The translations under genes and the position numbers were made by a program. A stretch of DNA of 64,000 bases from assembly GCF_055900595.2 (NCBI RefSeq), contig NZ_CM148325.1; one strand, given 5' to 3'. Under the pieces are notes generated by a model. It saw nothing but the letters and a program-made list of their open reading frames with translations. It made no database searches and was not told the origin of the DNA. This document shows, in pieces, positions 1,036 to 19,308 of this stretch; the first letter of the stretch is position 1, and each line of letters opens with the position of its first letter.

Positions 1036-1141
1036 TCATTATGCGGGTTTTAATTTATACCTTCACACATTCTTTAATTAATGAAACCTGTAATAACAGG
1101 ATGGCATGAAATATTAGTTTTATACTCTATGGAGATTATTT

Positions 1142-3178: not shown

Positions 3179-3186
3179 TCACGTCC

Positions 3187-3208
3187 GCCCGTGGGGAAAC
3201 TCACGGGC
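3187..3208 (+). other. intercistronic GC hairpin between yihQ and yihP
   Basis: GCCCGTG (3187-3193) pairs with CACGGGC (3202-3208) around an 8-nt loop. No T-run follows, so it is not a classical terminator. Confidence 0.4.
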
Positions 3209-3223
3209 ACAGGGAGAACAACG

Positions 3224-4609
3224 ATGAGTCACATCACAACGGAAGATCCGGCTACTTTACGCCTGCCCTTTAAAGAGAAACTCTCTTACGGTATCGGCGA
3301 TCTGGCCTCTAACATCCTGCTGGATATCGGCACGCTTTATCTTTTGAAGTTTTATACCGACGTTCTGGGGCTGCCCGGTACCTATGGCGGCATTATCTTT
3401 TTGATTTCGAAGTTCTTTACTGCGTTTACCGATATGGGTACCGGCATCATGCTCGATTCCCGACGCAAGATCGGTCCAAAAGGTAAGTTCCGTCCTTTTA
3501 TTCTGTATGCGTCATTCCCGGTCACCTTACTGGCGATCGCCAACTTTGTCGGCACACCGTTTGATGTCACCGGTAAAACGGTGATGGCCACTATCCTGTT
3601 TATGCTCTACGGGCTGTTTTTCAGCATGATGAACTGCTCTTATGGCGCAATGGTCCCCGCTATTACCAAAAACCCCAACGAACGCGCATCACTGGCGGCA
3701 TGGCGTCAGGGTGGCGCTACATTGGGCCTGCTGCTTTGTACGGTGGGATTCGTGCCGGTTATGAATCTTATCGAGGGTAATCAGCAACTTGGCTATATCT
3801 TCGCCGCCACGCTGTTTTCACTGTTCGGCCTGCTGTTTATGTGGATCTGCTATTCGGGCGTGAAAGAGCGTTATGTCGAAACGCAACCTGCAAATCCGGC
3901 GCAAAAGCCAGGCTTGTTGCAGTCTTTCCGCGCAATTGCCGGTAACCGCCCGCTGTTCATTTTGTGCATTGCTAACCTCTGTACCTTAGGGGCATTTAAC
4001 GTCAAGCTCGCCATTCAGGTCTATTACACCCAGTACGTGCTTAACGATCCCATCCTGTTGTCATATATGGGATTTTTCAGCATGGGCTGTATTTTCATCG
4101 GCGTGTTCCTGATGCCTGGTGCAGTCAGACGTTTTGGTAAGAAGAAGGTCTATATCGGCGGCCTGCTGATTTGGGTGCTGGGCGATCTGCTCAACTATTT
4201 CTTCGGCGGCGGCTCGGTCAGTTTTGTGGCGTTCTCCTGCCTGGCATTCTTCGGCTCGGCGTTTGTTAACAGCCTGAACTGGGCACTGGTTTCCGACACC
4301 GTCGAGTACGGCGAGTGGCGCACCGGCGTTCGTTCGGAAGGTACGGTCTACACCGGCTTCACCTTCTTTCGCAAAGTATCTCAGGCGCTGGCAGGTTTCT
4401 TCCCAGGCTGGATGCTGACGCAAATCGGCTATGTGCCAAACGTGGCGCAGGCTGACCATACCATCGAAGGTTTACGCCAGCTGATCTTCATCTACCCAAG
4501 CGCACTGGCGGTAGTCACCATTGTTACGATGGGTTGCTTCTACAGTCTGAACGAGAAAATGTACGTCCGCATTGTTGAAGAAATAGAAGCCCGTAAACGC
4601 ACGGCATAA
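3224..4609 (+). CDS. yihP: GPH-family (glycoside-pentoside-hexuronide:cation symporter) transporter YihP
   Basis: The ORF track starts at GTG 3191. ATG 3224 (MSHITTEDP...) has a GGGAG RBS and gives 461 aa, the length I recall for K-12 YihP. It is a 12-TM MelB-like protein and a clear paralog of the next gene. Confidence 0.9.
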   Translation: MSHITTEDPATLRLPFKEKLSYGIGDLASNILLDIGTLYLLKFYTDVLGLPGTYGGIIFLISKFFTAFTDMGTGIMLDSRRKIGPKGKFRPFILYASFPVTLLAIANFVGTPFDVTGKTVMATILFMLYGLFFSMMNCSYGAMVPAITKNPNERASLAAWRQGGATLGLLLCTVGFVPVMNLIEGNQQLGYIFAATLFSLFGLLFMWICYSGVKERYVETQPANPAQKPGLLQSFRAIAGNRPLFILCIANLCTLGAFNVKLAIQVYYTQYVLNDPILLSYMGFFSMGCIFIGVFLMPGAVRRFGKKKVYIGGLLIWVLGDLLNYFFGGGSVSFVAFSCLAFFGSAFVNSLNWALVSDTVEYGEWRTGVRSEGTVYTGFTFFRKVSQALAGFFPGWMLTQIGYVPNVAQADHTIEGLRQLIFIYPSALAVVTIVTMGCFYSLNEKMYVRIVEEIEARKRTA

Positions 4610-4618
4610 ATAATAAAC

Positions 4619-4636
4619 AACGCCCTGCGGGGCGTT
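4619..4636 (+). other. intercistronic hairpin between yihP and yihO
   Basis: AACGCCC (4619-4625), loop TGCG, GGGCGTT (4630-4636). It is followed by ATAAGGAG (the yihO RBS) rather than a T-run. Confidence 0.4.
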
Positions 4637-4649
4637 ATAAGGAGTGATT

Positions 4650-6053
4650 ATGTCTGACCATAATCCACTGACATTAAAACTGAATCTGCGGGAAAAAATC
4701 GCTTATGGCATGGGCGACGTCGGTTCGAATTTAATGCTTAGCATCGGCACTCTGTATCTCCTCAAATTTTATACCGATGAATTAGGGATGCCTGCTTACT
4801 ATGGCGGGATTATCTTTCTGGTGGCAAAATTCTTTACCGCGTTTACCGATATGCTCACCGGATTTTTACTCGACTCGCGGAAAAATATTGGGCCTAAAGG
4901 CAAATTTCGTCCCTTTATTTTATATGCAGCGGTTCCGGCGGCGTTAATTGCAACGCTCCAGTTTATCGCCACCACTTTTAGTTTGCCGATTAAAACGACG
5001 ATTGCCACCGCGCTGTTTATGATGTTTGGACTTTCATACAGTCTGATGAACTGCTCGTATGGCGCGATGATTCCAGCAATTACCAAAAACCCCAATGAGC
5101 GCGCGCAGCTTGCGGCTTACCGCCAGGGTGGTGCAACCATAGGGCTATTGATTTGTACCGTAGCATTTATTCCACTGCAGTCGCTTTTTTCTGACTCCAC
5201 TGTCGGTTATGCCTGCGCGGCACTGATGTTCTCCATTGGTGGCTTTATTTTTATGATGCTGTGCTACAGAGGCGTCAAAGAGCATTATGTGGACACGACG
5301 CCAACCGGACATAAAGCCAGTATTCTCAAATTTTTTTGCGCGATATTTCGTAATCCGCCATTGCTGGTTTTATGCATTGCTAACCTGTGTACCCTGGCGG
5401 CATTTAATATCAAACTGGCAATTCAGGTCTATTACACCCAGTATGTGCTGAATGATATTAATTTATTGTCGTGGATGGGATTCTTCAGTATGGGATGCAT
5501 CCTCATCGGCGTATTGCTGGTGCCATTAACTGTAAAATGTTTTGGTAAAAAACAGGTTTATTTAGCTGGCATGGTGCTGTGGGCGGTGGGGGATATCCTG
5601 AATTATTTCTGGGGCAGTAACTCTTTCACTTTCGTCATGTTCTCTTGTGTCGCCTTTTTTGGTACGGCCTTTGTGAACAGCCTGAACTGGGCGTTAGTTC
5701 CTGACACCGTAGATTACGGTGAATGGAAAACCGGTATTCGTGCCGAAGGTTCTGTTTATACTGGTTATACCTTCTTTCGTAAAATTTCTGCCGCACTTGC
5801 TGGCTTCTTGCCAGGCATTATGCTGACGCAAATCGGTTATGTTCCCAACATCGCGCAAAGCGATGCAACATTACAGGGTTTGCGTCAGCTCATTTTTATT
5901 TGGCCTTGTGCGCTGGCGATAATTGCTGCATTGACGATGGGATTCTTTTACACGCTCAATGAAAAACGTTTTGCGTTAATTATTGAGGACATCAACCAAC
6001 GTAAAAATAAAGAGATTGAGACAAAAGAAAAAACTGCTTCCGTAACGTTATAA
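4650..6053 (+). CDS. yihO: GPH-family transporter YihO (proposed sulfoquinovose importer)
   Basis: ATG at 4650 lies 6 nt after AAGGAG (the track starts 2 codons earlier at GTG 4644) and gives 467 aa. It is highly similar to YihP along its full length, for example shared LYLLKFYTD, NPNERA and YYTQYVLND. Confidence 0.9.
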   Translation: MSDHNPLTLKLNLREKIAYGMGDVGSNLMLSIGTLYLLKFYTDELGMPAYYGGIIFLVAKFFTAFTDMLTGFLLDSRKNIGPKGKFRPFILYAAVPAALIATLQFIATTFSLPIKTTIATALFMMFGLSYSLMNCSYGAMIPAITKNPNERAQLAAYRQGGATIGLLICTVAFIPLQSLFSDSTVGYACAALMFSIGGFIFMMLCYRGVKEHYVDTTPTGHKASILKFFCAIFRNPPLLVLCIANLCTLAAFNIKLAIQVYYTQYVLNDINLLSWMGFFSMGCILIGVLLVPLTVKCFGKKQVYLAGMVLWAVGDILNYFWGSNSFTFVMFSCVAFFGTAFVNSLNWALVPDTVDYGEWKTGIRAEGSVYTGYTFFRKISAALAGFLPGIMLTQIGYVPNIAQSDATLQGLRQLIFIWPCALAIIAALTMGFFYTLNEKRFALIIEDINQRKNKEIETKEKTASVTL

Positions 6054-6120
6054 ATGTCAATAGCCGCTATTTCCATCCTGATGGGTGGCGGCCCCCCTAC
6101 GTTAAAAAAATGGACTTATT

Positions 6121-6813
6121 ATGAAAAAGATTAATGCAATAATTTTATTATCTTCTCTGACCTCTGCCTCGGTATTTGCTGGCGCATACGTCGAAAACAG
6201 GGAGGCATATAATCTCGCCTCCGATCAGGGCGAGGTTATGCTACGTGTGGGTTATAACTTCGATATGGGCGCGGGTATCATGTTAACCAATACCTACAAC
6301 TTTCAGCGCGAAGATGAACTAAAACATGGATATAACGAAATTGAAGGCTGGTATCCGTTATTTAAACCAACCGATAAATTAACCATCCAGCCCGGTGGAT
6401 TAATTAATGATAAGAGCGCCGGTTCCGGTGGTGCAGTATATCTGGACGTCAACTATAAATTTGTACCATGGTTTAATCTGACAGTGCGAAATCGCTATAA
6501 CCATAATAACTACAGTTCAACAGATTTGAACGGGGAGCTGGATAATAATGACACCTATGAAATTGGTACCTACTGGAATTTCAAAATCACCGATAAATTC
6601 TCCTATACATTTGAGCCACATTATTTTATACGCGTAAATGACTTTAATAGCAGCAATGGAAAAGATCATCATTGGGAAATCACTAATACCTTCCGTTACC
6701 GTATTAATGAACACTGGCTGCCTTATTTCGAATTACGCTGGTTAGACCGCAACGTCGAGCCGTATCACCGCGAGCAAAACCAGATTCGTATCGGAACGAA
6801 GTATTTCTTCTGA
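6121..6813 (+). CDS. ompL: outer membrane porin OmpL
   Basis: 230-aa ORF with signal peptide MKKINAIILLSSLTSASVFA and alternating beta-strand pattern. It ends in the aromatic residues YFF typical of OMPs and sits downstream of yihO as in K-12. Confidence 0.92.
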   Translation: MKKINAIILLSSLTSASVFAGAYVENREAYNLASDQGEVMLRVGYNFDMGAGIMLTNTYNFQREDELKHGYNEIEGWYPLFKPTDKLTIQPGGLINDKSAGSGGAVYLDVNYKFVPWFNLTVRNRYNHNNYSSTDLNGELDNNDTYEIGTYWNFKITDKFSYTFEPHYFIRVNDFNSSNGKDHHWEITNTFRYRINEHWLPYFELRWLDRNVEPYHREQNQIRIGTKYFF

Positions 6814-6822
6814 TGTGAAAAT

Positions 6823-6888
6823 GTAAAAAGTCGCTGATATGGACTGCCCCCCATAAAGTTGGACAGTTCAGGTTAAGCGGCTTTTTAC
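6823..6888 (+). terminator. possible long-stem terminator/structure downstream of ompL
   Basis: GTAAAAAGTCGCT (6823-6835) is complementary, with one mismatch, to AGCGGCTTTTTAC (6876-6888). The distal arm carries a T5 run. The large 40-nt loop makes the call tentative. Confidence 0.3.
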
Positions 6889-7025
6889 ACAGATATTCAC
6901 AATATAAATAACTCCCCATAATTATATAACCACGTTGATTATAAAATATTCCTCGTCCTCTCTATCAAAGTCATTGACTACCAGGTAAGATCTTTTCCAC
7001 CGCAACACTCACAAGGAATGAGAAA

Positions 7026-7874
7026 ATGGAAAAGAAATTTTTTATGGATTGGGATAATGAAATCCCGCAAGAAGAGTTTATTAACAATATTTTAGCCGAT
7101 GAAGACCTGCCTAAAATCCGCTCTCTGATTATTGGTCGTTGGGGGGAGTGCTGGGATGAGGAAAGTTGCCAACCAATAATCGACATGTTTGTTGAACATG
7201 CCGAACGCTTTGCTCATCTCGAATCCCTATTTATCGGCGATATGGAAAGCGAAGAGTGTGAAATTTCGTGGATAAAACAAGGGGATTATTCTCGTCTGTA
7301 TGCTGCGCTGCCGAACCTCAAAAAGCTGACAATTAAAGGTACTCAGGGCCTGGAACTGGGAGAAATCGCCCATGACAAACTGGAGCATCTGGAAATTATC
7401 TCTGGCGGTACGCCGTGTGACGTGTTCGCCTCATTGCAAAATGCCCAACTGCCTGCGTTAAAAACACTTATCGTTTATATTGGCGTTGAGAATTATGGTT
7501 TTGATGCATCGCTGGATATCGTAATGAAGCTGGCGTCGAAATCCCTCTTCCCGAGCCTGACGCATCTTGGCCTGGTGAACAGCGAAGAGCAAAACGAAAT
7601 CGTCCGCCGCGTGCTGGAAAGCGACATTCTGCCGCAACTGGAAGTGCTGGCACTCTCCTGCGGTACGCTTACCGACGAAGGTGCAGAGCATCTTCTCAAA
7701 CATGCCGATCGCCTTAGCCATCTGAAACTGCTGGATTTGTACCATCATTACCTGACAGAAGAGATGCAGAAAAAACTGCAAAAAACACTGACATGTACTC
7801 TCGAATTATCAGAAGCGCTAACGCCTGAAGTCTATGATGACGAAATTTATATGCATGCGATGTATACCGAATAA
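7026..7874 (+). CDS. cytoplasmic leucine-rich-repeat protein (ribonuclease-inhibitor/RNI-like LRR) with an acidic Tyr-rich C-terminal tail; function unknown
   Basis: 282-aa ORF with AAGGAA RBS and no signal peptide. LRR units recur: LPKIRSLIIG, FAHLESLFIG, LPNLKKLTIKG, LEHLEIISG, LPALKTLIVYIG, FPSLTHLGLVN, LPQLEVLALSCGTLTDEGAEHLLKH and LSHLKLLDLYHHYLTEE. The tail is PEVYDDEIYMHAMYTE*. Confidence 0.8.
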   Translation: MEKKFFMDWDNEIPQEEFINNILADEDLPKIRSLIIGRWGECWDEESCQPIIDMFVEHAERFAHLESLFIGDMESEECEISWIKQGDYSRLYAALPNLKKLTIKGTQGLELGEIAHDKLEHLEIISGGTPCDVFASLQNAQLPALKTLIVYIGVENYGFDASLDIVMKLASKSLFPSLTHLGLVNSEEQNEIVRRVLESDILPQLEVLALSCGTLTDEGAEHLLKHADRLSHLKLLDLYHHYLTEEMQKKLQKTLTCTLELSEALTPEVYDDEIYMHAMYTE

Positions 7875-7886
7875 ATGACATTTATT

Positions 7887-7906
7887 GGGAGAGAGTCATC
7901 TCTCCC
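7887..7906 (+). terminator. perfect 8-bp stem-loop directly after the LRR gene; candidate partial terminator/attenuator
   Basis: GGGAGAGA (7887-7894), loop GTCA, TCTCTCCC (7899-7906), followed by the T-rich ATTATTTAT. It lies 13 nt after the LRR stop codon. Confidence 0.55.
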
Positions 7907-7934
7907 ATTATTTATCACAGAAAAGGAATTCTTC

Positions 7935-8921
7935 GTGATTACGCTAATTGGTCATCCTGAAAGCAAACGCACATTTTATTTTTGCCAGGCAGCGTCACGC
8001 TTACAGGAACATATCAACGTAGTGAGCTATGATCAAGCACTTACCCTGCTCTTAAATAAAGGCATGGTAAAAATCGATCCCCCCTTACATCAGGAAACAG
8101 ATATTCGCTTAATTAATACGGTTAGCCAAAACTATATTACTTTTTTACAAAAAATGGCTACCAGAAGGGAGATCCGTTTTATTAACTCACCAGAAGGTAT
8201 TATTCATCTTCTGGATAAACGCCACTGTAAGCAACGATTAGTCGAACACGCGATCCCGACACCGCCAATATTAGCGGATGATATCCGTAGCTACGATCAA
8301 CTGATCGCCTGTATGCGCAGCGAAAAGGTTTATCGCGTGTTTATTAAGCCGAATTTCGGATCAGGGGCCGCCGGGGTGCTGGCTTTGAGTCTACATCCCG
8401 GCGATAACCGTCAGGTGCTTTATTGCGCCATCCAGGTTGCAGGTGACAGGCTGGTGAACAGTAAACATATTATCCGCTATGAAAACAGCGGTGATATTAC
8501 GTTGATTGTGAATGCTATTTTACAACAAGACAATATTATCGAACGCTGGCTGGCAAAAGCCAGAGTGGGCAATAAAAGCTACGATTTACGCATCGTGTAC
8601 GTTAATGGTGAAATCGTCTGGCGGGTTGTCAGAACATCATCACAGCCGATCACCAATTTACATTTACAAAATGAAGCTATCCGTTTTGCCGATCTTAATT
8701 TACCCGTAGAAAAAGTAGCTGAAATTGATACGCTTTGTCTCAACGCCATGACCCTCTATCCGGACGTACACATTGCCGGGCTTGACGTATTACTCACGCA
8801 AAATTTAACACCCTATATTATCGAAATTAACGGCCAGGGCGATCTTATTTATCAGGACACCTGCGAAAAAAACAAAATTTATCAACGCCAGATTCAGGTA
8901 ATGAGAGAACATCATGTATAA
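7935..8921 (+). CDS. ATP-grasp fold ligase (RimK / glutathione-synthetase-like); substrate unknown
   Basis: The track ORF starts at ATG 7875, but that start would place the hairpin inside the CDS. GTG 7935 (VITLIGHPES...) has an AAAGGA RBS. ATP-grasp motifs are present: YRVFIKPNFGSGAAGVLAL, YDLRIVYVNGEIV and AGLDVLLTQNLTPYIIEINGQGD. The start codon is uncertain. Confidence 0.75.
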   Translation: MITLIGHPESKRTFYFCQAASRLQEHINVVSYDQALTLLLNKGMVKIDPPLHQETDIRLINTVSQNYITFLQKMATRREIRFINSPEGIIHLLDKRHCKQRLVEHAIPTPPILADDIRSYDQLIACMRSEKVYRVFIKPNFGSGAAGVLALSLHPGDNRQVLYCAIQVAGDRLVNSKHIIRYENSGDITLIVNAILQQDNIIERWLAKARVGNKSYDLRIVYVNGEIVWRVVRTSSQPITNLHLQNEAIRFADLNLPVEKVAEIDTLCLNAMTLYPDVHIAGLDVLLTQNLTPYIIEINGQGDLIYQDTCEKNKIYQRQIQVMREHHV

Positions 8922-9786
8922 CGTAACAGACGAAGTACCGGAAAATACCCGCACGGCAATCCATTCCTGCGATGGCGAAATCAATCTGAATGATTTAATT
9001 GCCAGGGAAGCCAATATCCTGTTTGTGGTGCTTGATTCCCTGCGTTTTGATATTGCGTTTCAGGAACAAGAGGCGGGAAATACACCAAATATTAACCGCT
9101 ATGGTCGCTGGATAAAGTGTGAAGCCGCTGGCAATTTTACCTGGCCTTCGCATCATTCGATGTTCTCTGGTTTTATGCCTAAGCCGCTGGAAGCTGCACC
9201 TGGTCATTCAATGCTCTTTTTCCCGAAAGATATTGGTTTAGGTCGTTTAGGGCCAAAAAATGCGTTCGCGTTCAGCGAAGAGACGTGGATTAAAGGGCTG
9301 GAAAACAAAGGTTACCGCACTATCTGCGTGGGTGGCGTCTCCTTTTTTAATAACCGCTCAGGGATGGGAAAAGTGTTCCCGGCGATGTTTAAAGAGAGTT
9401 ACTGGTATCCTAATTTCTCCTGCACGGTGAAAGAGAGCATGGATAATCAGCTCACCTTAATTAACAAAAAGGTGAACGCTGAACAGCCGCTGATGATGTA
9501 TATCAATATCGACACCATTCATTATCCGAATCATTTTTATATTGAAAATGCCAAACCTGGCGATACGGTAGAAACTCACGCCGCTGCCCTGCATTATATT
9601 GATGCCAGAATCGAAAAACTTTTCGATATCTTTCGGCAAACCGGGCGGGAGACGTTAGTTATTCTCTGTTCCGATCATGGCACCTGCTACGGGGAAGACG
9701 GTAAATATTTCCACAGTTTTAACCATCCGATTGTGAATACCGTACCCTATTTTCACTTTGTGTTAGACGGCAAAGACCATGAATAA
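8914..9786 (+). CDS. alkaline-phosphatase-superfamily hydrolase (sulfatase/NPP-like fold), soluble, with a predicted Thr nucleophile
   Basis: 290-aa ORF whose ATG overlaps the upstream stop by 8 nt. Motifs are the N-terminal metal-ligand motif VVLDSLRFD, the nucleophile motif F-T-W-P-S-H-H-S-M-F-S-G (T-x-P-x-H, at 9139 onward) and the C-terminal CSDHGTCYGEDG (D-H metal ligands). Confidence 0.75.
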   Translation: MYNVTDEVPENTRTAIHSCDGEINLNDLIAREANILFVVLDSLRFDIAFQEQEAGNTPNINRYGRWIKCEAAGNFTWPSHHSMFSGFMPKPLEAAPGHSMLFFPKDIGLGRLGPKNAFAFSEETWIKGLENKGYRTICVGGVSFFNNRSGMGKVFPAMFKESYWYPNFSCTVKESMDNQLTLINKKVNAEQPLMMYINIDTIHYPNHFYIENAKPGDTVETHAAALHYIDARIEKLFDIFRQTGRETLVILCSDHGTCYGEDGKYFHSFNHPIVNTVPYFHFVLDGKDHE

Positions 9787-11017
9787 TGAATCGATTTATC
9801 AGCAATATATGTACAGTTACCCGCATAAGACCGCTTATCGGGAATTAAACAATATTGCTTTTGCGGATGTGAAATCGCGTATTTACGAGCATAAAACACA
9901 TCTCTATATTCATATGCCTTTTTGCCAGAGCCGCTGCGGGTTTTGTAATCTCTTTACCTGCACGGGGGCAGACAATGCCTTTATCGACAACTACATAGAA
10001 GCAATTATTATCCAGGCCCGGCAAATGCAACTTGCGCCTGTAGACTGGGCCAGTTTTACCATTGGCGGCGGTACGCCACTACTGCTTAATACCGGGCAAC
10101 TGTCACGGTTGTTTCGCGGGGTGTTTGACGAATTACAGGTCGATGCGCAGATTTTTAAGGCAATTGAAACATCGCCTTCCGATACCACCGCCGAAAAGGT
10201 CGCGTTATTGCGCCAGCTTGCGGTAAACCGCGTCAGTATTGGCATTCAGAGTTTTAACGATCTGGAACTTGCCACATTACACCGCCGCCATAGTGCGGAA
10301 AATGCCCATCGGGCGCTGGAGCTACTGCGCAGGGGTAATTTCCCGATAATCAATATTGATATTATTTACGGTATTCCTGGTCAAACAGCCGCAAGTTTAA
10401 TGGCGTCGCTTAATCAAGCATTAGATTATCAGCCTGACGAACTGTTTCTGTACCCGCTATATAACATGCCGCGTCAGCCGGATATGTATAGCCTCTATAT
10501 TGAAGCCCGCGATCGCTTATTGCATGAAGGTTATACGCAAACGTCAATGCGCCGTTTTGTGCGGGTGAATAATGATTCGGCGGCTGAAAGTTGTGGCTTT
10601 GAAAATTCGCTGGCGCTTGGCGCGGGCGGGCGCAGTTATCTTGGCAATTTACATTACTGCACGCCGTGGTCGCAAAACCAGCCCGCATCGCGGCAAATTG
10701 TCACGGATTTTATCGCCCGGCCAGATAAGACCCAGATTCACCACGGCTATGTACTTTCACAAGCAGAAATGAAGCGGCGTTTTATTATCAAGAATCTCTT
10801 TTTCTATAAGGGGCTTTCGTTACGGGATTATCAGCACCAGTTCTTCTCTGAGGTATTAAGCGATTTTCCCCTGCTGGGCGATTTCATCAAACAAGATTAC
10901 TGCCACCAGCAGGATAATCGTATTCTGCTCACCGCGCAGGGTTTAGCGCTTTCGGACCAGCTTGGCCCGCTGTTTATCTCCCCGGAAGTTCGCAGGCTGG
11001 AGACGCATAAACGATGA
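9779..11017 (+). CDS. HemN/HemW-like (class C-type) radical SAM enzyme
   Basis: 412-aa ORF whose ATG overlaps the upstream stop by 8 nt. CX3CX2C motif FCQSRCGFC lies at 9923-9946. It aligns by eye with the authentic HemN in this window: YIHMPFCQSRCGFC vs YVHIPFCHKLCYFC, TIGGGTPLLL vs HWGGGTPTYL, NRVSIGIQSFND vs NRLSMGVQDFNK, NIDIIYGIPGQT vs NIDLIYGLPKQT. Confidence 0.85.
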   Translation: MNNESIYQQYMYSYPHKTAYRELNNIAFADVKSRIYEHKTHLYIHMPFCQSRCGFCNLFTCTGADNAFIDNYIEAIIIQARQMQLAPVDWASFTIGGGTPLLLNTGQLSRLFRGVFDELQVDAQIFKAIETSPSDTTAEKVALLRQLAVNRVSIGIQSFNDLELATLHRRHSAENAHRALELLRRGNFPIINIDIIYGIPGQTAASLMASLNQALDYQPDELFLYPLYNMPRQPDMYSLYIEARDRLLHEGYTQTSMRRFVRVNNDSAAESCGFENSLALGAGGRSYLGNLHYCTPWSQNQPASRQIVTDFIARPDKTQIHHGYVLSQAEMKRRFIIKNLFFYKGLSLRDYQHQFFSEVLSDFPLLGDFIKQDYCHQQDNRILLTAQGLALSDQLGPLFISPEVRRLETHKR

Positions 11018-11871
11018 CGCTCAAGCAGATCCAGACGCTGATTTATCGCGGCGAGATAAAGTCGTGTAATTATCGCTGTGGTTATTGCCCTTTTCATAAA
11101 CAAGACCGCAATGATAAACAGCAGGATGAAGTGGCATTATGGCGCATGGTTGAACATTTACCGGCGCAGGGTTCACCATTAAATGTATTTATTACGCCCT
11201 ACGGCGAAGCATTGCGTTATCGTTATTATATGGCGGCGATGGCGGAAATCAGCCGCTATTCCCATGTGCAGGCGGTGGGTATTCAGACCAACGCCTCTTT
11301 TAATTTATCCACCTTAGTCGCGACTTTTCAGCACTCTCAGGGCGATTTAGCAAAGCTGCGGCTGTGGTGTTCGTTTCATCCTTCCCAGGCAAGTAAAGAA
11401 GTTTTCCTTAAACAGTTACTGGCAATTAAGGACACGGGGATTACCTGTTCTGTGGGGGCCGTCGCCAGCGTAGCCGACTATGACGAATTACAGTGGTTAC
11501 GCGCGCATCTTCCTCCCGATATCTATTTCTGGCTAAACGCCAATGAGCGCGATAAAAGGCCCACCAGCGACGAAAGAAATAGCCAGTTTCAGTTGCTGGA
11601 CCCGCTTTATTATCTGGAAACCAGCCTCTGGCCTGCCAATGTCGAGTTTTGTCTGGGCGGCAAAAAGAGCGTGTTTATGAATGCTGATGGCGATCTCTTC
11701 GCCTGTAATATCAGCAAAATTAAGATTGGCAATTTATATCAACAGCAACTTTCATCTCCGTCTTGTATGTCCAGGCACTGTCACTGTTATCTGGCTTATC
11801 ACCTGCGTGAGGATATTCCGGCCCTCTCACAATTTGATGCTGAACGCTGCTTTCGGATCTTCTCGTTATGA
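11014..11871 (+). CDS. small radical SAM enzyme with a C-terminal Cys-rich (SPASM/twitch-like) region
   Basis: 285-aa ORF with an ATGA overlap with the upstream gene. CX3CX2C motif SCNYRCGYC lies at 11065-11088, and a YGEAL (GGE-like) motif is present. The C-terminus carries CLGGKKSVFMNADGDLFAC then CMSRHCHC (from 11650). Confidence 0.8.
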   Translation: MTLKQIQTLIYRGEIKSCNYRCGYCPFHKQDRNDKQQDEVALWRMVEHLPAQGSPLNVFITPYGEALRYRYYMAAMAEISRYSHVQAVGIQTNASFNLSTLVATFQHSQGDLAKLRLWCSFHPSQASKEVFLKQLLAIKDTGITCSVGAVASVADYDELQWLRAHLPPDIYFWLNANERDKRPTSDERNSQFQLLDPLYYLETSLWPANVEFCLGGKKSVFMNADGDLFACNISKIKIGNLYQQQLSSPSCMSRHCHCYLAYHLREDIPALSQFDAERCFRIFSL

Positions 11872-12563
11872 TCTGGCGGTTAATCGCGCTCGATTTAGAC
11901 GGCACATTGCTGAACAGCAAGAAGATGATTTCCCCTGCGTCTGTTTCGGCACTGCAAAGCGCACAACAGGCAGGTGTGAAAATTATCCTCGCCACCGGAC
12001 GTTCGCACAGCGAAGCCCTGCCTTATTACCAACAATTGCAGTTAACCGAGCCGATGATTTGCTGTAACGGCAGCTATCTTTATCATCCGCGCCAGCGGCA
12101 AATATTGCGTCCGCTGGCGCTTGATATCCACAAGGTGGAAAGGCTACGACTCTGGTTTTCACAACAAATATTGCAGCCAAATATTTATACGTACGATGAT
12201 TTTGTTTTGCAGATTAGCCTGATACACCGCAAGGCTTCGTTATTGCGCCAGACAGAGGAATTTGCCCGACAAGAATTATCGCTGGCCTGTAGCTGGTCCT
12301 GGCATCATCAACTGGATATTACACAGGTGGGGTGTGAGAAAGGCAAAAGTCTGGCCTGGTATGCCCGACAGCAAAATATCGTGCTGGATGAAATCATCGC
12401 CTTTGGCGATAACGATAATGATGCGGGGATGCTGCGGATGGTAGGCAAAGGGATTGCGATGGGCAATGGCAGTTCGCTGGCAAAAGTCAGTGCTGACCGC
12501 GTTATTGGTCACAACAACACAGATGCTATTGCGGATTTTCTTGATGCGCAGGGTTTCAGATGA
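11868..12563 (+). CDS. HAD-superfamily Cof-type (IIB) phosphatase
   Basis: 231-aa ORF with an ATGA overlap with the upstream gene. It has motif I LDLDGTLL, motif II ILATGRS and motif IV AFGDNDNDAGML. Confidence 0.85.
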   Translation: MIWRLIALDLDGTLLNSKKMISPASVSALQSAQQAGVKIILATGRSHSEALPYYQQLQLTEPMICCNGSYLYHPRQRQILRPLALDIHKVERLRLWFSQQILQPNIYTYDDFVLQISLIHRKASLLRQTEEFARQELSLACSWSWHHQLDITQVGCEKGKSLAWYARQQNIVLDEIIAFGDNDNDAGMLRMVGKGIAMGNGSSLAKVSADRVIGHNNTDAIADFLDAQGFR

Positions 12564-12564
12564 C

Positions 12565-12600
12565 GCCTGATGCGATGCTGACGCATCTTATCAGGCCTAC
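12565..12600. repeat. REP (repetitive extragenic palindrome) element
   Basis: GCCTGATGCGATGCTGACGCATCTTATCAGGCCTAC matches the canonical E. coli REP consensus and its palindromic structure. Confidence 0.85.
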
Positions 12601-12605
12601 AAAAG

Positions 12606-12637
12606 CAAAAAACCTGCCATCGCTGGCAGGTTTTTTA
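12606..12637. terminator. bidirectional rho-independent terminator shared by the HAD gene (+) and typA (-)
   Basis: CCTGCCA (12613-12619) pairs with TGGCAGG (12624-12630). It is flanked by an A-run upstream and T6 downstream, so it reads as a terminator on both strands. Confidence 0.8.
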
Positions 12638-12653
12638 TGACTAAAAAACGAAA

Positions 12654-14477
12654 TTAATCGTCTTTCGGTGCGCGGTTGGCGCGACGACGATCGTTTTCCG
12701 TCAGGTGACGTTTACGAATACGGATAGAGGTCGGAGTCACTTCTACCAGTTCGTCATCATCGATGAACTCCAGCGCTTGTTCCAGCGTCATGCGGATAGG
12801 CGGAACCAGAACAACGGCTTCGTCAGTACCGGAAGCACGCATGTTGGTCAGTTTCTTACCGGTCAGACAGTTTACAGTCAGGTCGTTAGAACGGCTGTGA
12901 ATACCGATAATCTGACCTTCGTAAACTTCTGCACCGTGACCGAGGAACAGCTTACCGCGATCCTGCAGACCGAACAGCGCGAACGCGACCGCTTTACCCT
13001 GACCGTTAGAGATCAGTACGCCGTTCTGACGCTGACCCACTTCACCCGGACGCACGTCGTCGTAGTGGCTGAAGGTGGAGTACAACAGACCCGTACCAGA
13101 GGTCATGGTCATGAACTCAGAACGGAAGCCAATCAGACCACGGCTTGGGATCACGTAGTCGAGACGTACGCGGCCTTTACCGTCTGGATTCATGTTTTTC
13201 AGGTCGCCTTTACGTTCGCCCAGCGCCTGCATCACAGAACCCTGATGCTGTTCTTCAACGTCCAGCGTCACGTTTTCATACGGCTCTTGTTTACGACCGT
13301 CGATTTCACGGAAGATAACTTTCGGACGGGATACCGCCAGTTCGAAACCTTCACGACGCATGTTTTCGATCAGAACAGACAGGTGCAGTTCGCCACGACC
13401 AGAAACGCGGAACGCATCGGCGTCTTCAGTTTCTTCTACGCGCAGCGCAACGTTGTGTACCAGTTCTTTGTTCAGACGATCCAGAATCTGACGAGACGTT
13501 ACGAACTTACCTTCTTTACCGCAGAACGGCGAGGTGTTAACGCAGAAGAACATAGAAACGGTCGGCTCATCAACGGAGAGTGCCGGCAGCGCTTCAACGT
13601 TTTGCGTGTCGCAAACGGTGTCAGAAATGTTCAGTTCGCCCAGGCCCGTGATCGCCACGATATCGCCAGCTTCCGCCAGATCGGTTTCGATACGTTCCAG
13701 ACCGAGGTGGCCCAGCACTTTACCGACTTTCGCGTTGCGGGTTTTGCCTTCGCTATCGATGATAGTAACTTGCTGGTTCGGCTTCACTTTACCGCGCTTG
13801 ATGCGGCCAATGCCGATAACGCCAACATAGCTGTTGTAATCGAGCTGAGAAATCTGCATCTGGAACGGACCGTCAAGGTCAACGTCCGGCGCAGGAACGT
13901 GGTCAACAATTGCCTGATACAGCGGGGTCATGTCTTCCGCCATATCTTCGTGGTCCAGACCGGCGATACCGTTCAGCGCAGAAGCGTAAACGATCGGGAA
14001 GTCCAGCTGCTCGTCGGTCGCGTCGAGGTTAACGAACAGGTCGAATACCTGATCCACAACCCAGTCAGGACGCGCGCCAGGGCGGTCAACTTTGTTGATA
14101 ACAACAATTGGCTTCAGGCCGTAAGCAAACGCTTTTTTGGTTACGAAGCGCGTTTGCGGCATCGGGCCGTCAAATGCGTCAACCACCAGCAGCACTGAGT
14201 CTACCATGGACATTACACGTTCAACTTCACCACCGAAGTCGGCGTGCCCCGGGGTATCAACGATGTTGATACGGTAATCATTCCATTTGATAGCGGTGTT
14301 TTTCGCGAGGATGGTAATCCCACGCTCTTTCTCCAAATCGTTGGAGTCCATCACGCGCTCTTGGGTTTCGGCACGAGAGTCGAACGTACCGGATTGTTGG
14401 AGCAGCTTGTCTACCAGGGTGGTTTTACCATGGTCTACGTGCGCGATGATGGCGATATTACGCAATTTTTCGATCAC
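12654..14477 (-). CDS. typA: ribosome-dependent translational GTPase BipA/TypA
   Basis: 607-aa ORF starting [26 protein letters not shown] with G-domain motifs [13 protein letters not shown] and NKVD. It is identical in style to K-12 BipA. Confidence 0.98.
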
Positions 14478-14628
14478 AACTTTGCCTCAGGCATTAGAAA
14501 TAGCGCGTTATTGTACACGGATTAATCGCACTACAAAACAGGATCACAAACATCCTCCGCAAACAAGTATTGCAGAGTCCCTTTGTGATCGCTTTCACGG
14601 AGCATAAAAAGGGTTATCCAAAGGTCAT

Positions 14629-14719
14629 TGCACCAATATGGTGCTTAATGTTTCCATTGAAGCACTATATTGGTGCAATATTCACATCGTGGTGCAGCCC
14701 TTTTGCACGATGGTGCGCA
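14629..14719. promoter_or_regulatory. NtrC (NRI) enhancer sites upstream of glnA
   Basis: Repeated TGCACC-N5-GGTGCA-type dyads: TGCACCAATATGGTGCT (14629-14645), GCACTATATTGGTGCA (14662-14677), TCACATCGTGGTGCA and TGCACGATGGTGCGCA (to 14719). Confidence 0.85.
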
Positions 14720-14750
14720 TGATAACGCCTTTTAGGGGCAATTTAAAAGT

Positions 14751-14766
14751 TGGCACAGTTTTCGCT
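14751..14766 (+). promoter_or_regulatory. glnAp2 sigma54 (-24/-12) promoter
   Basis: TGGCACAGTTTTCGCT has GG and GC elements at the correct sigma54 spacing. It lies about 85 nt upstream of the glnA ATG and downstream of the NtrC sites. Confidence 0.85.
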
Positions 14767-14849
14767 TTATCTTTTTTACGGCGACACGGCCAAAATAATT
14801 GCAGATTTCGTTACCACGACGACCATGACCAATCCAGGAGAGTTAAAGT

Positions 14850-16259
14850 ATGTCCGCTGAACACGTACTGACGATGCTGAACGAGCACGAAGTGAAGTTT
14901 GTTGATTTGCGCTTCACCGATACCAAAGGTAAAGAACAGCACGTCACTATCCCTGCTCATCAGGTGAATGCTGAATTCTTCGAAGAAGGCAAAATGTTTG
15001 ACGGCTCCTCGATTGGCGGCTGGAAAGGCATTAACGAATCCGACATGGTGCTGATGCCAGACGCATCCACCGCAGTGATTGACCCGTTCTTCGCGGACTC
15101 TACCCTGATTATCCGTTGCGATATCCTTGAACCAGGCACCCTGCAAGGCTATGACCGTGACCCGCGTTCCATCGCGAAGCGCGCTGAAGATTACCTGCGT
15201 TCTACTGGCATTGCCGACACCGTACTGTTCGGGCCAGAACCTGAATTCTTCCTGTTCGATGACATCCGTTTCGGCGCGTCTATCTCCGGTTCTCATGTTG
15301 CCATCGACGATATCGAAGGTGCATGGAACTCCTCCACCAAATATGAAGGTGGTAACAAAGGTCACCGTCCGGCAGTGAAAGGCGGTTACTTCCCGGTTCC
15401 GCCGGTAGACTCTGCTCAGGATATCCGTTCTGAAATGTGTCTGGTGATGGAACAGATGGGACTGGTAGTTGAAGCCCATCACCACGAAGTAGCGACTGCT
15501 GGTCAGAACGAAGTGGCTACCCGCTTCAATACCATGACCAAAAAAGCTGACGAAATTCAGATCTACAAATATGTTGTGCACAACGTAGCACACCGCTTCG
15601 GTAAAACCGCGACCTTTATGCCAAAACCGATGTTCGGTGATAACGGCTCCGGTATGCACTGCCACATGTCACTGTCTAAAAACGGCGTCAACCTGTTCGC
15701 TGGCGACAAATATGCAGGTCTGTCTGAGCAGGCGTTGTACTACATTGGCGGCGTAATCAAACACGCTAAAGCAATTAACGCCCTGGCAAACCCGACCACC
15801 AACTCTTACAAGCGTCTGGTCCCGGGCTACGAAGCACCGGTAATGCTGGCTTACTCTGCGCGCAACCGTTCTGCGTCTATCCGTATTCCAGTGGTTTCTT
15901 CTCCGAAAGCACGTCGTATCGAAGTCCGTTTCCCGGACCCAGCGGCTAACCCGTACCTGTGCTTTGCTGCCCTGCTGATGGCCGGTCTTGATGGTATCAA
16001 GAACAAGATCCACCCAGGCGAAGCCATGGACAAAAACCTGTATGACCTGCCGCCAGAAGAAGCGAAAGAGATCCCACAGGTTGCAGGCTCTCTGGAAGAA
16101 GCACTGAACGAACTGGATCTGGACCGCGAGTTCCTGAAAGCCGGTGGCGTGTTCACTGACGAAGCCATTGATGCGTACATCGCTCTGCGTCGCGAAGAAA
16201 ATGACCGCGTGCGTATGACTCCGCATCCGGTAGAGTTTGAGCTGTACTACAGCGTCTAA
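14850..16259 (+). CDS. glnA: glutamine synthetase type I
   Basis: 469-aa ORF starting [31 protein letters not shown] with a GGAG RBS. The adenylylation-site region NLYDLPPEE is present. Confidence 0.98.
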
Positions 16260-16346
16260 TAGTTGAAGTTGTACTACCCGGTGCTAAGAAGGCCGGGATT
16301 TAGTTGCCGTGGAAACTTTCAGCCCATCTCTGCATGGGCTTTTTTC
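16260..16346 (+). ncRNA. glnZ: glnA 3'UTR, the expected source of the 3'UTR-derived sRNA GlnZ; boundaries approximate
   Basis: This segment runs from the glnA stop to the intrinsic terminator at 16321-16346. GlnZ is described in enterobacteria as processed from this 3'UTR. The 5' end cannot be determined from sequence alone. Confidence 0.4.
16321..16346 (+). terminator. rho-independent terminator after glnA
   Basis: AGCCCAT (16321-16327), loop CTCTGC, ATGGGCT (16334-16340), followed by T5. Confidence 0.8.
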
Positions 16347-16390
16347 TCCGTAACTTCTTTGATGCTTCGCGCTTTTTATCCGTAAAAAGC

Positions 16391-16412
16391 TATAATGCAC
16401 TAAAATGGTGCA
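16391..16412 (+). promoter_or_regulatory. glnLp: -10 TATAAT overlapped by an NtrC operator
   Basis: TATAAT at 16391-16396 is immediately followed or overlapped by the dyad TGCACTAAAATGGTGCA (16396-12). It lies about 25 nt upstream of the glnL ATG region. Confidence 0.7.
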
Positions 16413-16433
16413 ACCTGTTCAGGAGACTGCTTT

Positions 16434-17483: not shown

Positions 17484-17494
17484 AGGTGACGTTT

Positions 17495-18904: not shown

Positions 18905-18944
18905 TTCACGGCTTGTGTGTAAAGATTGATTATTGAGCGCAAAT

Positions 18945-18975
18945 TGCTGGTATTTTGCGCTTTACTGTTCCGATA
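18945..18975 (+). terminator. probable terminator of glnALG
   Basis: AGCGCAAA (18946-18953) pairs with TTTGCGCT (18964-18971), followed by TTTACTGTT. Confidence 0.5.
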
Positions 18976-19015
18976 AGTTCAGTATGATCTTGCCCGGAAA
19001 ACGGGGAGAGTCATT

Positions 19016-19126: not shown

Positions 19127-19140
19127 AGCTCGTTGTTTAT

Positions 19141-19243: not shown

Positions 19244-19308
19244 AAAAGCAATAATTTCAACAGGTTTTCTTAACCAGCGCATCAAGCAATCTTGTTCTCA
19301 GCACATTG

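What the first reader, a model, noticed from the sequence alone, without database searches (positions are those of the whole stretch)
6814..12653. The cassette replaces yihL-yihM-yihN at the ompL-typA junction, in opposite orientation, with no mobility genes
As I recall K-12, the order is typA-yihL-yihM-yihN-ompL, with yihLMN co-oriented with typA. None of those genes (GntR regulator, sugar-phosphate isomerase-like, MFS transporter) is present here. Instead the six-gene cassette runs in the opposite direction, co-oriented with ompL. The left junction is a 212-nt AT-rich spacer (6814-7025) containing a long imperfect stem (6823-6888). The right junction (12564-12653) holds one REP element and a bidirectional terminator shared with typA. 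No integrase, transposase, tRNA or direct repeats flank it. This looks like an ancient allelic replacement at a variable chromosomal slot rather than a recent mobile insertion. Because it lies downstream of and co-oriented with yihQ-yihP-yihO-ompL, read-through and a functional link to that block cannot be excluded.
Basis: partly seen in the sequence, partly recalled or inferred. Interest (0 to 1): 0.5.

Follow-up and report, generated by a model that had tools for sequence, protein, structure and literature searches.

The report
Old alternative gene cassette beside typA
This E. coli strain carries, between ompL and typA, the same six-gene operon of unknown function that Salmonella has there (STM4015–STM4010). 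K-12 has yihLMN at that spot, so this is an old, non-mobile presence/absence polymorphism, and its main interest is the uncharacterised operon itself.

Summary
Homology to K-12 stops 7–10 nt after the ompL stop codon (window ~6820) and resumes at the typA terminator (~12601–12606). In between, K-12 has 3.3 kb of yihN-yihM-yihL. The window has 5.8 kb carrying six intact, co-oriented genes: STM4015, 4014, 4013, 4012, 4011 and a Cof-type HAD. There is no tRNA, integrase, transposase or flanking direct repeat.

The slot is polymorphic among 5,426 complete E. coli genomes: yihLMN in 4,239, the cassette in 157 (including LF82, NRG857C and an ST1193 strain), and empty in about 840. The cassette sits next to typA in Salmonella, Superficieibacter, E. 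marmotae and another Escherichia assembly, with different left neighbours. yihLMN sits next to typA in Citrobacter and Klebsiella. Synonymous divergence of the cassette matches that of its flanks, and dN/dS is 0.03–0.23. So these are two ancient alternative occupants, not a recent insertion, and which came first is unresolved.

A strong terminator after ompL, and the cassette's occurrence without ompL or the yih genes, argue against a functional link to sulfoquinovose catabolism.

The five core genes form a self-contained module that is common in Lachnospiraceae. My functional guess (~0.3) is that a LysX/RimK-like ATP-grasp enzyme acts on the invariant C-terminal Glu of the LRR protein STM4015.

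The parts
6121..6813 (+). ompL (porin OmpL), the left conserved flank
   Evidence: NCBIfam NF007434 scores 472 bits. It is 95.5% identical to K-12 ompL.
6820..6823 (.). Left breakpoint: homology to K-12 and to the 'empty' allele ends 7-10 nt after the ompL stop codon
6822..6889 (+). Long stem-loop. The outer 14-bp stem with A/U-run flanks is the bidirectional intrinsic terminator of ompL. In this lineage the loop carries a 32-nt insertion that forms an inner hairpin.
   Evidence: Arms 6822-6835 and 6876-6889. dG -30, z -5.4. The common E. coli cassette allele (L092) has the simple hairpin without the insertion.
6890..7025 (+). AT-rich upstream region of the cassette and its presumed promoter (weak -35/-10 candidate at 6896-6925)
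   Evidence: The whole spacer is 37.3% GC. The consensus scan matches 9 of 12 positions. The region is ~95% conserved in E. coli 1428 but not alignable where the left neighbour differs. No transcription start site has been shown.
7026..7874 (+). STM4015 family protein: ribonuclease-inhibitor-type leucine-rich-repeat (LRR) protein with an invariant C-terminal M-x-T-E
   Evidence: NF038076 scores 323 bits. PDB 2RA8 matches with E 1e-96 and TM 0.88. AF2 model pLDDT 93. C-terminus conservation.
7886..7907 (+). Hairpin in the 60-nt spacer between STM4015 and STM4014, a possible partial terminator or mRNA stabiliser
   Evidence: The same 60-nt spacing is present in other Escherichia alleles, but Salmonella has only a 12-nt spacer.
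7935..8921 (+). STM4014 family ATP-grasp ligase (GTG start as in RefSeq; the longest ORF begins at 7875)
   Evidence: NF038074 scores 337 bits, with weak RimK, MptN, LysX and CofF hits. AF2 model pLDDT 92.7. Best PDB fold matches are ArgX/LysW, DcsG, RimK/S6 and LysX.
8914..9786 (+). STM4013/SEN3800 family hydrolase of the alkaline-phosphatase/sulfatase superfamily, with Thr at the nucleophile position (T-W-P-S-H)
   Evidence: NF038075 scores 351 bits. Pfam Sulfatase and Phosphodiest hits. The motif was read from the translation.
9779..11017 (+). STM4012 family HemN-like radical SAM protein
   Evidence: NF006067 scores 492 bits. PDB HemN 1OLT and the methyltransferase NocN are the nearest solved relatives.
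11014..11871 (+). STM4011 family radical SAM protein with a C-terminal Cys-rich region resembling a SPASM or twitch domain
   Evidence: NF038073 scores 300 bits. SPASM PF13186 scores 18.9 bits against a cutoff of 21.5. No relative in the PDB by sequence.
11868..12563 (+). Cof-type HAD-IIB phosphatase (counterpart of STM4010); its start overlaps the STM4011 stop
   Evidence: TIGR00099 scores 179 bits. In locus L097 a STM4011-family rSAM is fused to a Cof-type HAD domain. The gene is absent from the Firmicute loci.
12565..12600 (+). REP element at the right end of the cassette. It is also retained in the 'empty' ompL-typA allele.
12601..12606 (.). Right breakpoint: homology to K-12 resumes here
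12607..12636 (.). Bidirectional intrinsic terminator shared by the cassette and typA
   Evidence: A perfect 13-bp stem. The terminator scan finds it. Fold dG -38 for the REP plus hairpin. Rfam STnc370 scores 53.2 bits against a gathering threshold of 54 on the - strand.
12654..14477 (-). typA/bipA, the right conserved flank and the anchor of the slot in all genera examined
   Evidence: NF007583 scores 1442 bits. Contexts.

Best explanation
Window 6821-12606 is the E. coli copy of the Salmonella STM4015-STM4014-STM4013-STM4012-STM4011-STM4010 operon. It occupies the chromosomal slot immediately downstream of the typA terminator.

That slot has at least three states in enterobacteria: yihLMN, this cassette, or empty. 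Both gene sets have been there since about genus-level divergence. In E. coli the states segregate as a polymorphism, and they combine freely with at least three versions of the neighbouring yih region. This is what homologous recombination in the conserved flanks would produce, rather than a mobile element (inferred). At least the ompL-typA empty allele is a deletion derivative of the cassette allele, because it keeps the cassette's right-end REP.

The cassette is an autonomous operon. It is insulated from ompL by a terminator, has its own AT-rich upstream region, has overlapping or tightly spaced genes, and is under purifying selection. It is not functionally tied to sulfoquinovose catabolism.

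Function is inferred, at about 0.3. The LRR protein STM4015 presents its invariant C-terminal ...M-x-T-E to the LysX/ArgX/RimK-like ATP-grasp ligase STM4014, which activates or extends the terminal Glu. The two radical SAM enzymes then tailor the product, and the Thr-nucleophile alkaline-phosphatase-family enzyme and the HAD phosphatase handle phosphoryl steps.
For: Breakpoints and content. All six proteins pass the NCBIfam cut-offs for the STM401x families and Cof-HAD.

Same synteny (yihQPO-ompL-cassette-typA-glnA) in Salmonella and Superficieibacter. The cassette sits next to typA with other left neighbours in E. marmotae, in an Escherichia assembly lacking the yih cluster, and in E. coli LF82. 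yihLMN sits next to typA in Citrobacter and Klebsiella at 70-80% nt identity.

E. coli census of 5,426 genomes:
- yihLMN: 4,239
- cassette: 157, none on plasmids
- empty ompL-typA: 216
- empty DeoR-typA: 624

The empty allele retains the cassette's REP.

Divergence: cassette dS is 0.12-0.26 against a second E. coli allele and 0.18-0.36 against E. marmotae. For glnA the values are 0.16 and 0.26. dN/dS is 0.03-0.23.

No tRNA and no direct repeats. Terminator after ompL.

Function:
- The 4015-4014-4013-4012-4011 order is conserved in about 60 of 80 Firmicute loci with no other conserved neighbour.
- The C-terminus is M-[LIM]-T-E in 78 of 80 loci, and T281 and E282 are invariant in 65 aligned homologues.
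- The best PDB fold matches of STM4014 are ArgX-LysW, RimK-S6 and LysX.
- The 4015-4014 pair occurs alone in 6 loci.
- There is a rSAM-HAD fusion in L097.
Against: Polarity and mechanism of exchange are inferred, not observed. No recombination tracts were mapped, and the phylogroup distribution was not reconstructed. I only recognised LF82, NRG857C and an ST1193 strain by name.

The GC content of the cassette (46.2%) is below the window mean (50.7%). The core genes are 35-56% identical to Lachnospiraceae proteins. So an old horizontal origin of the module is likely, and it cannot be dated.

For the functional part:
- The fold-search margin of ArgX/RimK over D-Ala-D-Ala ligases and PsnB is small (E 1e-14 against 1e-12; TM 0.61-0.66).
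- STM4015 is a 282-aa folded LRR protein, unlike any known carrier or precursor.
- The SPASM match is below threshold.
- No experiment or paper addresses these genes.
Confidence: 0.8

Rival explanations
1. Recent horizontal acquisition: the cassette is a genomic islet inserted into this strain's lineage by a mobile element or phage, displacing yihLMN.
For: The cassette has lower GC than its surroundings (46.2% against 50.7%). Only 2.9% of E. coli carry it. The core genes have their closest non-enterobacterial relatives in Lachnospiraceae.
Against: There is no integrase, transposase, tRNA or flanking repeat. The same slot is occupied in Salmonella, Superficieibacter, E. marmotae and B2 E. coli. 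dS equals that of the flanking core genes. Three or more diverged E. coli alleles exist, at 93-95% identity to each other. The cassette is never on plasmids.
Confidence: 0.04
2. Polarity variant A. The cassette is the ancestral occupant for the Escherichia-Salmonella lineage. yihLMN was brought into most E. coli later, by recombination with a Citrobacter- or Klebsiella-like donor. On this view K-12 carries the replacement, not this strain.
For: The cassette is present at the slot in Salmonella, E. marmotae, a second Escherichia lineage and several E. coli phylogroups, and its dS tracks the flanks. The tauE-containing yih cluster of the window is also the Salmonella-type architecture, which K-12 lacks.
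Against: E. coli yihLMN is only 74-80% identical to the Citrobacter genes, about as expected for vertical descent. Klebsiella, a more distant genus, also has yihLMN next to typA. That favours yihLMN as the older enterobacterial state.
Confidence: 0.4
3. The cassette is a functional extension of the sulfoquinovose (yih) regulon. It would be transcribed by read-through from ompL and would process a sulfo-sugar-derived metabolite, with the 'sulfatase' STM4013 acting on a sulfo-ester.
For: The cassette is co-oriented and adjacent to yihQPO-ompL in the window, in E. coli 1428, in Salmonella and in Superficieibacter. STM4013 hits Pfam Sulfatase.
Against: A strong terminator lies between ompL and the cassette. 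The cassette occurs without any yih sulfoquinovose genes in L087, and next to a different sugar cluster in E. marmotae and LF82. It has no sulfoquinovose genes nearby in 80 Firmicute loci. STM4013 lacks the Cys/Ser-x-P-x-R formylglycine motif and has Thr instead.
Confidence: 0.05
4. Functional alternative. The enzymes make or repair a small molecule, such as a cofactor or modified nucleotide. STM4015 is only a regulatory or scaffolding subunit and not a substrate. Another possibility is that the module is an unrecognised stress or defence system.
For: HemN-like rSAM enzymes, ATP-grasp ligases (CofF, MptN), alkaline-phosphatase-family enzymes and HAD phosphatases are all common in cofactor pathways. 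Some STM4015 homologues carry an N-terminal WGR domain, including PDB 2RA8. The module is self-contained in variable contexts, which is typical of accessory or defence cassettes.
Against: There is no significant PADLOC family match: five proteins gave none, and STM4012 had only a weak partial hit (PDC-M51A, 22.7 bits). The invariant free C-terminal T-E on the LRR protein and the stand-alone 4015-4014 pairs are not explained by a purely regulatory role.
Confidence: 0.45

Closest known systems
Salmonella enterica STM4010-STM4015 locus (between bipA/typA and yshA/ompL in LT2)
   Same: The same six genes are in the same order and orientation, with the same flanks: tauE-yihQPO-ompL on one side and typA-glnA on the other. 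All pass the same NCBIfam models.
   Different: Identity is only 68-74% nt and about 59-73% aa. Salmonella has no REP at the right junction, a 12-nt rather than 60-nt gap between 4015 and 4014, and a 244-aa rather than 231-aa HAD. In Salmonella the locus is essentially fixed. In E. coli it is a 3% minority allele.
E. coli K-12 yihL-yihM-yihN (GntR regulator, TIM-barrel isomerase-like protein, MFS transporter)
   Same: It occupies exactly the same slot and ends at the same right boundary, the A-run of the typA terminator.
   Different: The genes are unrelated, in the opposite orientation, and span 3.3 kb rather than 5.8 kb. The REP lies at the ompL side instead of the typA side.
Replacement-type variable loci of E. 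coli exchanged by flanking homologous recombination (for example the O-antigen cluster between galF and gnd; own knowledge)
   Same: Alternative, unrelated gene sets sit between conserved flanks. There are no mobility genes, the alleles are deep, and they combine mosaically with neighbouring variable blocks.
   Different: This locus is much smaller, has only two gene sets plus empty states, and no selective agent is known.
LysW-LysX/ArgX amino-group carrier system and RimK-ribosomal protein S6
   Same: An ATP-grasp ligase of the same fold (top PDB matches) is encoded next to a protein with an invariant C-terminal Glu.
   Different: The partner is a 282-aa LRR protein, not a ~55-aa zinc-ribbon carrier or a ribosomal protein. 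No lysine or arginine pathway enzymes are present. Two radical SAM enzymes and an alkaline-phosphatase-family enzyme are present instead. Ligation has not been shown.
Radical SAM/SPASM peptide-maturation systems (PqqA/PqqE, MftA/MftC) and graspetide ATP-grasp systems (PsnB, MdnC)
   Same: They combine rSAM enzymes, and in some cases an ATP-grasp enzyme, with a co-encoded polypeptide whose conserved C-terminal residues are the site of chemistry. PsnB is among the fold matches. STM4011 has a weak SPASM match.
   Different: There is no short precursor peptide, no leader/core architecture, and no protease or exporter. The SPASM match is below threshold.

Membership tests
STM4011-STM4015 conserved cassette (NCBIfam NF038073, NF006067, NF038075, NF038074, NF038076) | Each protein scores above the curated cut-off of its family model | tested here: met
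   Scores against cut-offs: 299.5/200, 491.8/380, 351.1/250, 336.6/175 and 323.1/275 bits.
STM4011-STM4015 conserved cassette (NCBIfam NF038073, NF006067, NF038075, NF038074, NF038076) | Genes are contiguous, co-oriented and in the order 4015-4014-4013-4012-4011 | tested here: met
   Window 7026-11871. The same order is seen in Salmonella, Superficieibacter and other Escherichia, and in about 60 of 80 Firmicute loci.
Mobile genomic island / integrative element | Integrase, recombinase or transposase gene in or next to the segment | tested here: not met
   None among the ORFs in 6000-13000. IS elements appear only as secondary insertions in a few other strains.
Mobile genomic island / integrative element | Insertion at a tRNA/tmRNA gene or flanking att-like direct repeats | tested here: not met
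   No tRNA in 1-20000. The only repeat spanning the junctions is a 15-16-nt imperfect match, typical of chance.
Mobile genomic island / integrative element | Composition clearly different from the host, and a sporadic, recent distribution | tested here: inconclusive
   GC is 46.2% against 50.7%, but the neighbouring ompL and yihO are just as low. The distribution is sporadic (157 of 5,426), but the alleles are old (dS 0.12-0.36).
REP (repetitive extragenic palindrome) | A ~35-nt imperfect palindrome ending in ...AGGCCTAC, extragenic, in multiple copies per genome | tested here: met
   12565-12600 folds as a hairpin. A second copy of the type lies at 19160-19193. There is a weak match to the REP-derived Rfam family naRNA4.
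Sulfatase (formylglycine-dependent) | A Cys/Ser-x-Pro-x-Arg motif supplying the formylglycine nucleophile | tested here: not met
   STM4013 has T-W-P-S-H-H at the corresponding position (read by eye). The Pfam Sulfatase hit covers the general fold only.
LysW/LysX-type amino-group carrier protein system | ATP-grasp ligase of the LysX/ArgX/RimK type | tested here: inconclusive
   The top PDB fold matches are ArgX, RimK and LysX, but the margins over Ddl and PsnB are small. The NCBIfam LysX and RimK hits are far below their cut-offs.
LysW/LysX-type amino-group carrier protein system | Small acidic zinc-ribbon carrier ending in Glu, plus kinase, reductase, aminotransferase and deacylase genes | tested here: not met
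   The partner is a 282-aa LRR protein, although it does end in an invariant Glu. None of the pathway enzymes is present.
RiPP biosynthetic cluster (rSAM-SPASM or graspetide) | A short precursor peptide with a leader and core, a SPASM-domain maturase, and a protease or exporter | tested here: not met
   There are no conserved small ORFs or transporters around the cassette in 80 loci. The SPASM match is sub-threshold at 18.9 against 21.5 bits.
Known anti-phage defence systems (PADLOC-DB) | Significant match of the proteins to a defence-system model | tested here: not met
   There is no hit except a weak partial rSAM match (PDC-M51A, 22.7 bits) for STM4012.

The most novel reading that the evidence does not exclude
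The STM4015-4011 module is a previously unrecognised kind of protein-templated chemistry. A folded LRR protein would use its invariant free C-terminal Thr-Glu as the handle on which a LysX/RimK-like ATP-grasp ligase builds an adduct. Two radical SAM enzymes (one HemN-like, one SPASM-like) and phosphoryl-transfer enzymes would then build or mature it. The result would be either a modified LRR protein or a released small molecule. The system is common in gut Lachnospiraceae and is shared with Salmonella and with E. coli lineages such as LF82 and ST1193.
Probability: 0.25. Interest if true: 0.75.

Novelty: new member of a known kind. Interest (0 to 1): 0.35.

Why it matters
As a genome-structure observation this is ordinary. 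It is one more conserved-flank slot where unrelated gene sets alternate, and the cassette is already named (though not characterised) in NCBI's family models and in Salmonella annotation.

Three results from the follow-up are useful.

1. The slot has a clean, countable set of states in E. coli: yihLMN 78%, cassette 3%, empty about 15%. The junctions are defined to the base, which makes it a convenient marker and a tidy case of long-lived polymorphism maintained without mobile elements.

2. The cassette can now be separated from sulfoquinovose metabolism.

3. The cassette is a strongly conserved, selection-maintained, two-radical-SAM operon with no known function. It is present in Salmonella, in adherent-invasive and pandemic extra-intestinal E. 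coli lineages, and in hundreds of gut Clostridia species.

The data also give a concrete, cheap experiment: mass spectrometry of the STM4015 C-terminus with and without the ATP-grasp enzyme.

Tried and rejected
I recovered enterobacterial contexts through exact-protein look-ups instead.
- Literature searches for STM4011-4015/SEN3800 and for yihL/M/N found only table entries and no functional data: a sigma54 ChIP site inside STM4013, a 1.1-fold-change listing, and a positive-selection list.
- PADLOC gave no defence-system match.
- Sequence search of the PDB gave nothing for STM4011, and only remote or uninformative hits for STM4014 and STM4013.
- I considered an anaerobic sulfatase-maturase pairing of STM4011 or STM4012 with the 'sulfatase' STM4013. 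I rejected it because STM4013 has Thr, not Cys or Ser, at the nucleophile position.
- I looked for conserved extra neighbours (transporter, regulator, precursor peptide) in 80 loci and found none.
- Consensus scans for FNR, CRP, sigma54 and ArcA sites in the 212-nt spacer gave only matches with 3 mismatches. The sigma70 scan is no better than shuffled sequence (15 found against 12.9 expected). So no promoter is claimed.
- I did not determine phylogroups of cassette-bearing strains. Only a few strain names are recognisable.
- The species of assembly GCA_041950135.1 (L087) was not verified. NCBI labels its STM4015 cluster E. fergusonii, but its typA and glnA are 98.8% identical to the window.

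Full report
**1. What is in the window**

The ORF map and family scans give this order:
- a tauE-like gene (160-1035)
- yihQ, yihP and yihO
- ompL (6121-6813)
- six + strand genes at 7026-12563
- typA on the - strand (12654-14477)
- glnA and glnL

The six genes score above the curated NCBIfam cut-offs for:
- the STM4015 family (323 bits)
- STM4014 (337 bits)
- the STM4013/SEN3800 hydrolase (351 bits)
- the STM4012 HemN-like radical SAM protein (492 bits)
- the STM4011 radical SAM protein (300 bits)
- Cof-type HAD-IIB hydrolases (179 bits)

The window is E. coli. The interval 6000-13200 is 99.9-100% identical to eight complete E. coli chromosomes.

**2. Check against K-12**

MG1655 has glnA, bipA/typA, yihL, yihM and yihN in one direction, and ompL, yihO, yihP and yihQ in the other.

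- BLAST of the window against this region finds homology up to 6820/6823 and again from about 12607. Nothing from yihLMN is present.
- Base-level comparison puts the left breakpoint 7-10 nt after the ompL stop codon. The right breakpoint is at the A-run of the typA terminator.
- K-12 has 3,315 bp there and the window has about 5.78 kb.
- In K-12 a REP lies at the ompL side. In the window a different REP lies at the typA side.

**3. Junction features**

- The 212-nt spacer is 37.3% GC.
- The stem at 6822-6889 is significant: dG -30 kcal/mol, z -5.4.
- Comparison with the commoner E. coli cassette allele (strain 1428) shows that the outer 14-bp stem, with its A-run and U-run, is a simple bidirectional terminator after ompL. 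The window lineage has a 32-nt insertion in its loop.
- The right junction holds a REP (12565-12600) and a perfect 13-bp hairpin (12607-12636) flanked by A and T runs. On the typA strand this region almost reaches the Rfam threshold for STnc370.
- There is no tRNA, no meaningful flanking direct repeat and no mobility gene.

**4. The slot in E. coli**

Counts among 5,426 complete genomes:

| State of the slot | Genomes |
|---|---|
| yihLMN over at least 80% of its length | 4,239 |
| Cassette (always chromosomal, one copy) | 157 |
| ompL abutting typA ('empty') | 216 |
| DeoR-family gene of an alternative sugar cluster abutting typA | 624 |
| Remainder (includes IS-disrupted and partly deleted forms) | about 190 |

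- The ompL-typA empty allele keeps the REP of the cassette's right end, so it is most simply a deletion of the cassette.
- The yihLMN module has the same two ends whether its left neighbour is ompL or the alternative cluster.
- Cassette-bearing genomes fall into at least three sequence groups. Relative to the window these are at ≥99%, about 94.7% and about 94.3%, plus single genomes at 95-99% and 93.4%. They include LF82, NRG 857C and an ST1193 strain.
- In LF82 the left neighbour is the alternative sugar cluster, not ompL.

**5. The slot in other genera**

- Salmonella enterica and Superficieibacter electus have tauE-yihQPO-ompL-cassette-typA-glnA, exactly as in the window.
- E. marmotae has alternative cluster-cassette-typA.
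- An Escherichia assembly whose STM4015 cluster NCBI labels E. fergusonii has yihX-cassette-typA and no yih sulfoquinovose cluster.
- Citrobacter freundii and Klebsiella aerogenes have typA-yihLMN. Serratia has yihLMN elsewhere.

So both gene sets are old tenants of the position downstream of typA.

**6. Age**

Nucleotide identity between the window and Salmonella:
- cassette genes: 68-74%
- the yih genes and glnL: 75-82%
- typA and glnA: 90%

Synonymous divergence:
- Against E. coli 1428, cassette dS is 0.12-0.26. For glnA it is 0.16 and for yihP 0.25.
- Against E. marmotae, cassette dS is 0.18-0.36. For glnA it is 0.26.
- dN/dS is 0.03-0.23 for all six genes.

The cassette has therefore diverged together with its flanks and is under purifying selection.

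E. coli yihLMN is 74-80% identical to the Citrobacter genes and 70-77% identical to the Klebsiella genes, so it is equally old. I cannot decide which was first. Klebsiella favours yihLMN for Enterobacteriaceae as a whole. The Escherichia and Salmonella distribution favours the cassette for that sub-lineage.

The window's strain is generally 95-99% identical to K-12. The 94.8% identity in yihQ-ompL is therefore only mildly elevated.

**7. Independence from the yih genes**

Two lines of evidence argue against a functional link:
- There is a terminator after ompL.
- The cassette occurs with three different left neighbours in Escherichia. It also occurs in 80 Firmicute loci with no sulfoquinovose genes and no other conserved neighbour.

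No promoter can be named. The sigma70 consensus scan is at background level, and scans for FNR, CRP and sigma54 sites gave nothing convincing.

**8. What the cassette may do**

- **Distribution.** The five core genes keep the order 4015-4014-4013-4012-4011 in about 60 of 80 loci from Lachnospiraceae and other Clostridia, at 28-56% amino-acid identity. At least 579 species representatives encode an STM4015 relative.
- **STM4015.** It is a ribonuclease-inhibitor-type LRR protein. The profile search hits the structural-genomics entry 2RA8 at E 1e-96. The AF2 model (pLDDT 93) superposes on it with TM 0.88. Its last residues are M-[LIM]-T-E in 78 of 80 loci, and T281 and E282 are invariant in 65 aligned homologues. 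The last residues are coil, and the final two have low confidence.
- **STM4014.** It is an ATP-grasp enzyme. Its AF2 model (pLDDT 92.7) is closest in the PDB to ArgX in complex with LysW, to DcsG, to RimK in complex with S6, and to LysX. ArgX, LysX and RimK all work on a protein's C-terminal Glu. The margin over D-Ala-D-Ala ligases is small.
- **The 4015-4014 pair.** It occurs alone, between housekeeping genes, in six loci.
- **STM4013.** It has the alkaline-phosphatase/sulfatase fold but T-W-P-S-H where sulfatases have C/S-x-P-x-R. From what is known of this superfamily, that points to phosphoryl transfer rather than sulfate ester hydrolysis.
- **STM4012.** It is HemN-like.
- **STM4011.** It has a sub-threshold SPASM match.
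- **The HAD.** It is missing from the Firmicute loci. In one other lineage a STM4011-family enzyme is fused to a Cof-type HAD domain, so the sixth gene of the enterobacterial operon belongs to the system.

My best guess, at roughly 0.3, is ligation at the C-terminal Glu of STM4015 by STM4014, followed by radical SAM tailoring. A small-molecule pathway with STM4015 as an accessory subunit is at least as likely overall. No paper in the library addresses function, and PADLOC has no match.

**9. Verdict**

The finding is a well-behaved example of a known kind of locus: alternative gene sets between conserved flanks. The cassette itself is a named but uncharacterised family. Interest is modest for the junction and higher for the cassette's biochemistry.

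Noticed in passing
window 55157-60928: A second block of about 5.8 kb is absent from K-12. It carries six + strand ORFs: an IclR-type regulator, a KDPGal-aldolase-like gene (NF006600, 323 bits), and three ORFs of 324, 168 and 496 aa whose sizes resemble a tripartite tricarboxylate-type transporter.
   Followed up: partly
window 160-1035: A tauE/safE-like sulfite-exporter gene lies upstream of yihQ. It is present in this strain, E. coli 1428, Salmonella and Superficieibacter, but absent from K-12. So the yih cluster here has the Salmonella-type architecture.
   Followed up: partly
window 12601-12669 (- strand): The typA 3' end and terminator match Rfam STnc370 (an enterobacterial sRNA) at 53.2 bits, just under the gathering score of 54.
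   Followed up: no
window 7875-7934: A 60-nt spacer with a stable hairpin (7886-7907) lies between STM4015 and the GTG start of STM4014. The same spacing is present in other Escherichia alleles, but Salmonella has only 12 nt. It may uncouple expression of STM4015 from the enzymes.
   Followed up: partly
L002 (NZ_CP098223.1) 4027-4874: In the otherwise identical strain Z0117EC0005, STM4015 is annotated as frameshifted (1 nt shorter). It is intact in the window.
   Followed up: no
L004, L088, L093, L098-L101: The block to the left of the slot is itself polymorphic. Versions seen are the K-12-type sulfoquinovose cluster, the same cluster with tauE, an alternative cluster (DeoR regulator, sugar kinase, yihU-like gene, aldolase, alcohol dehydrogenase (ADH), two MFS transporters, epimerase) shared with Citrobacter and E. 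marmotae, or nothing. All combine with the different slot states.
   Followed up: partly
L049 1116-3753: A Defluviitaleaceae contig carries three tandem STM4015 paralogues. All end in P-M-I-T-E, and they are followed directly by STM4013 and STM4012, with no STM4014 detected between them.
   Followed up: no
L097 5076-11136: This locus has a rearranged cassette order: 4012, a 4011::HAD fusion, a WGR-LRR form of 4015, 4014 and 4013. The N-terminal WGR domain on STM4015 is as in PDB 2RA8.
   Followed up: partly
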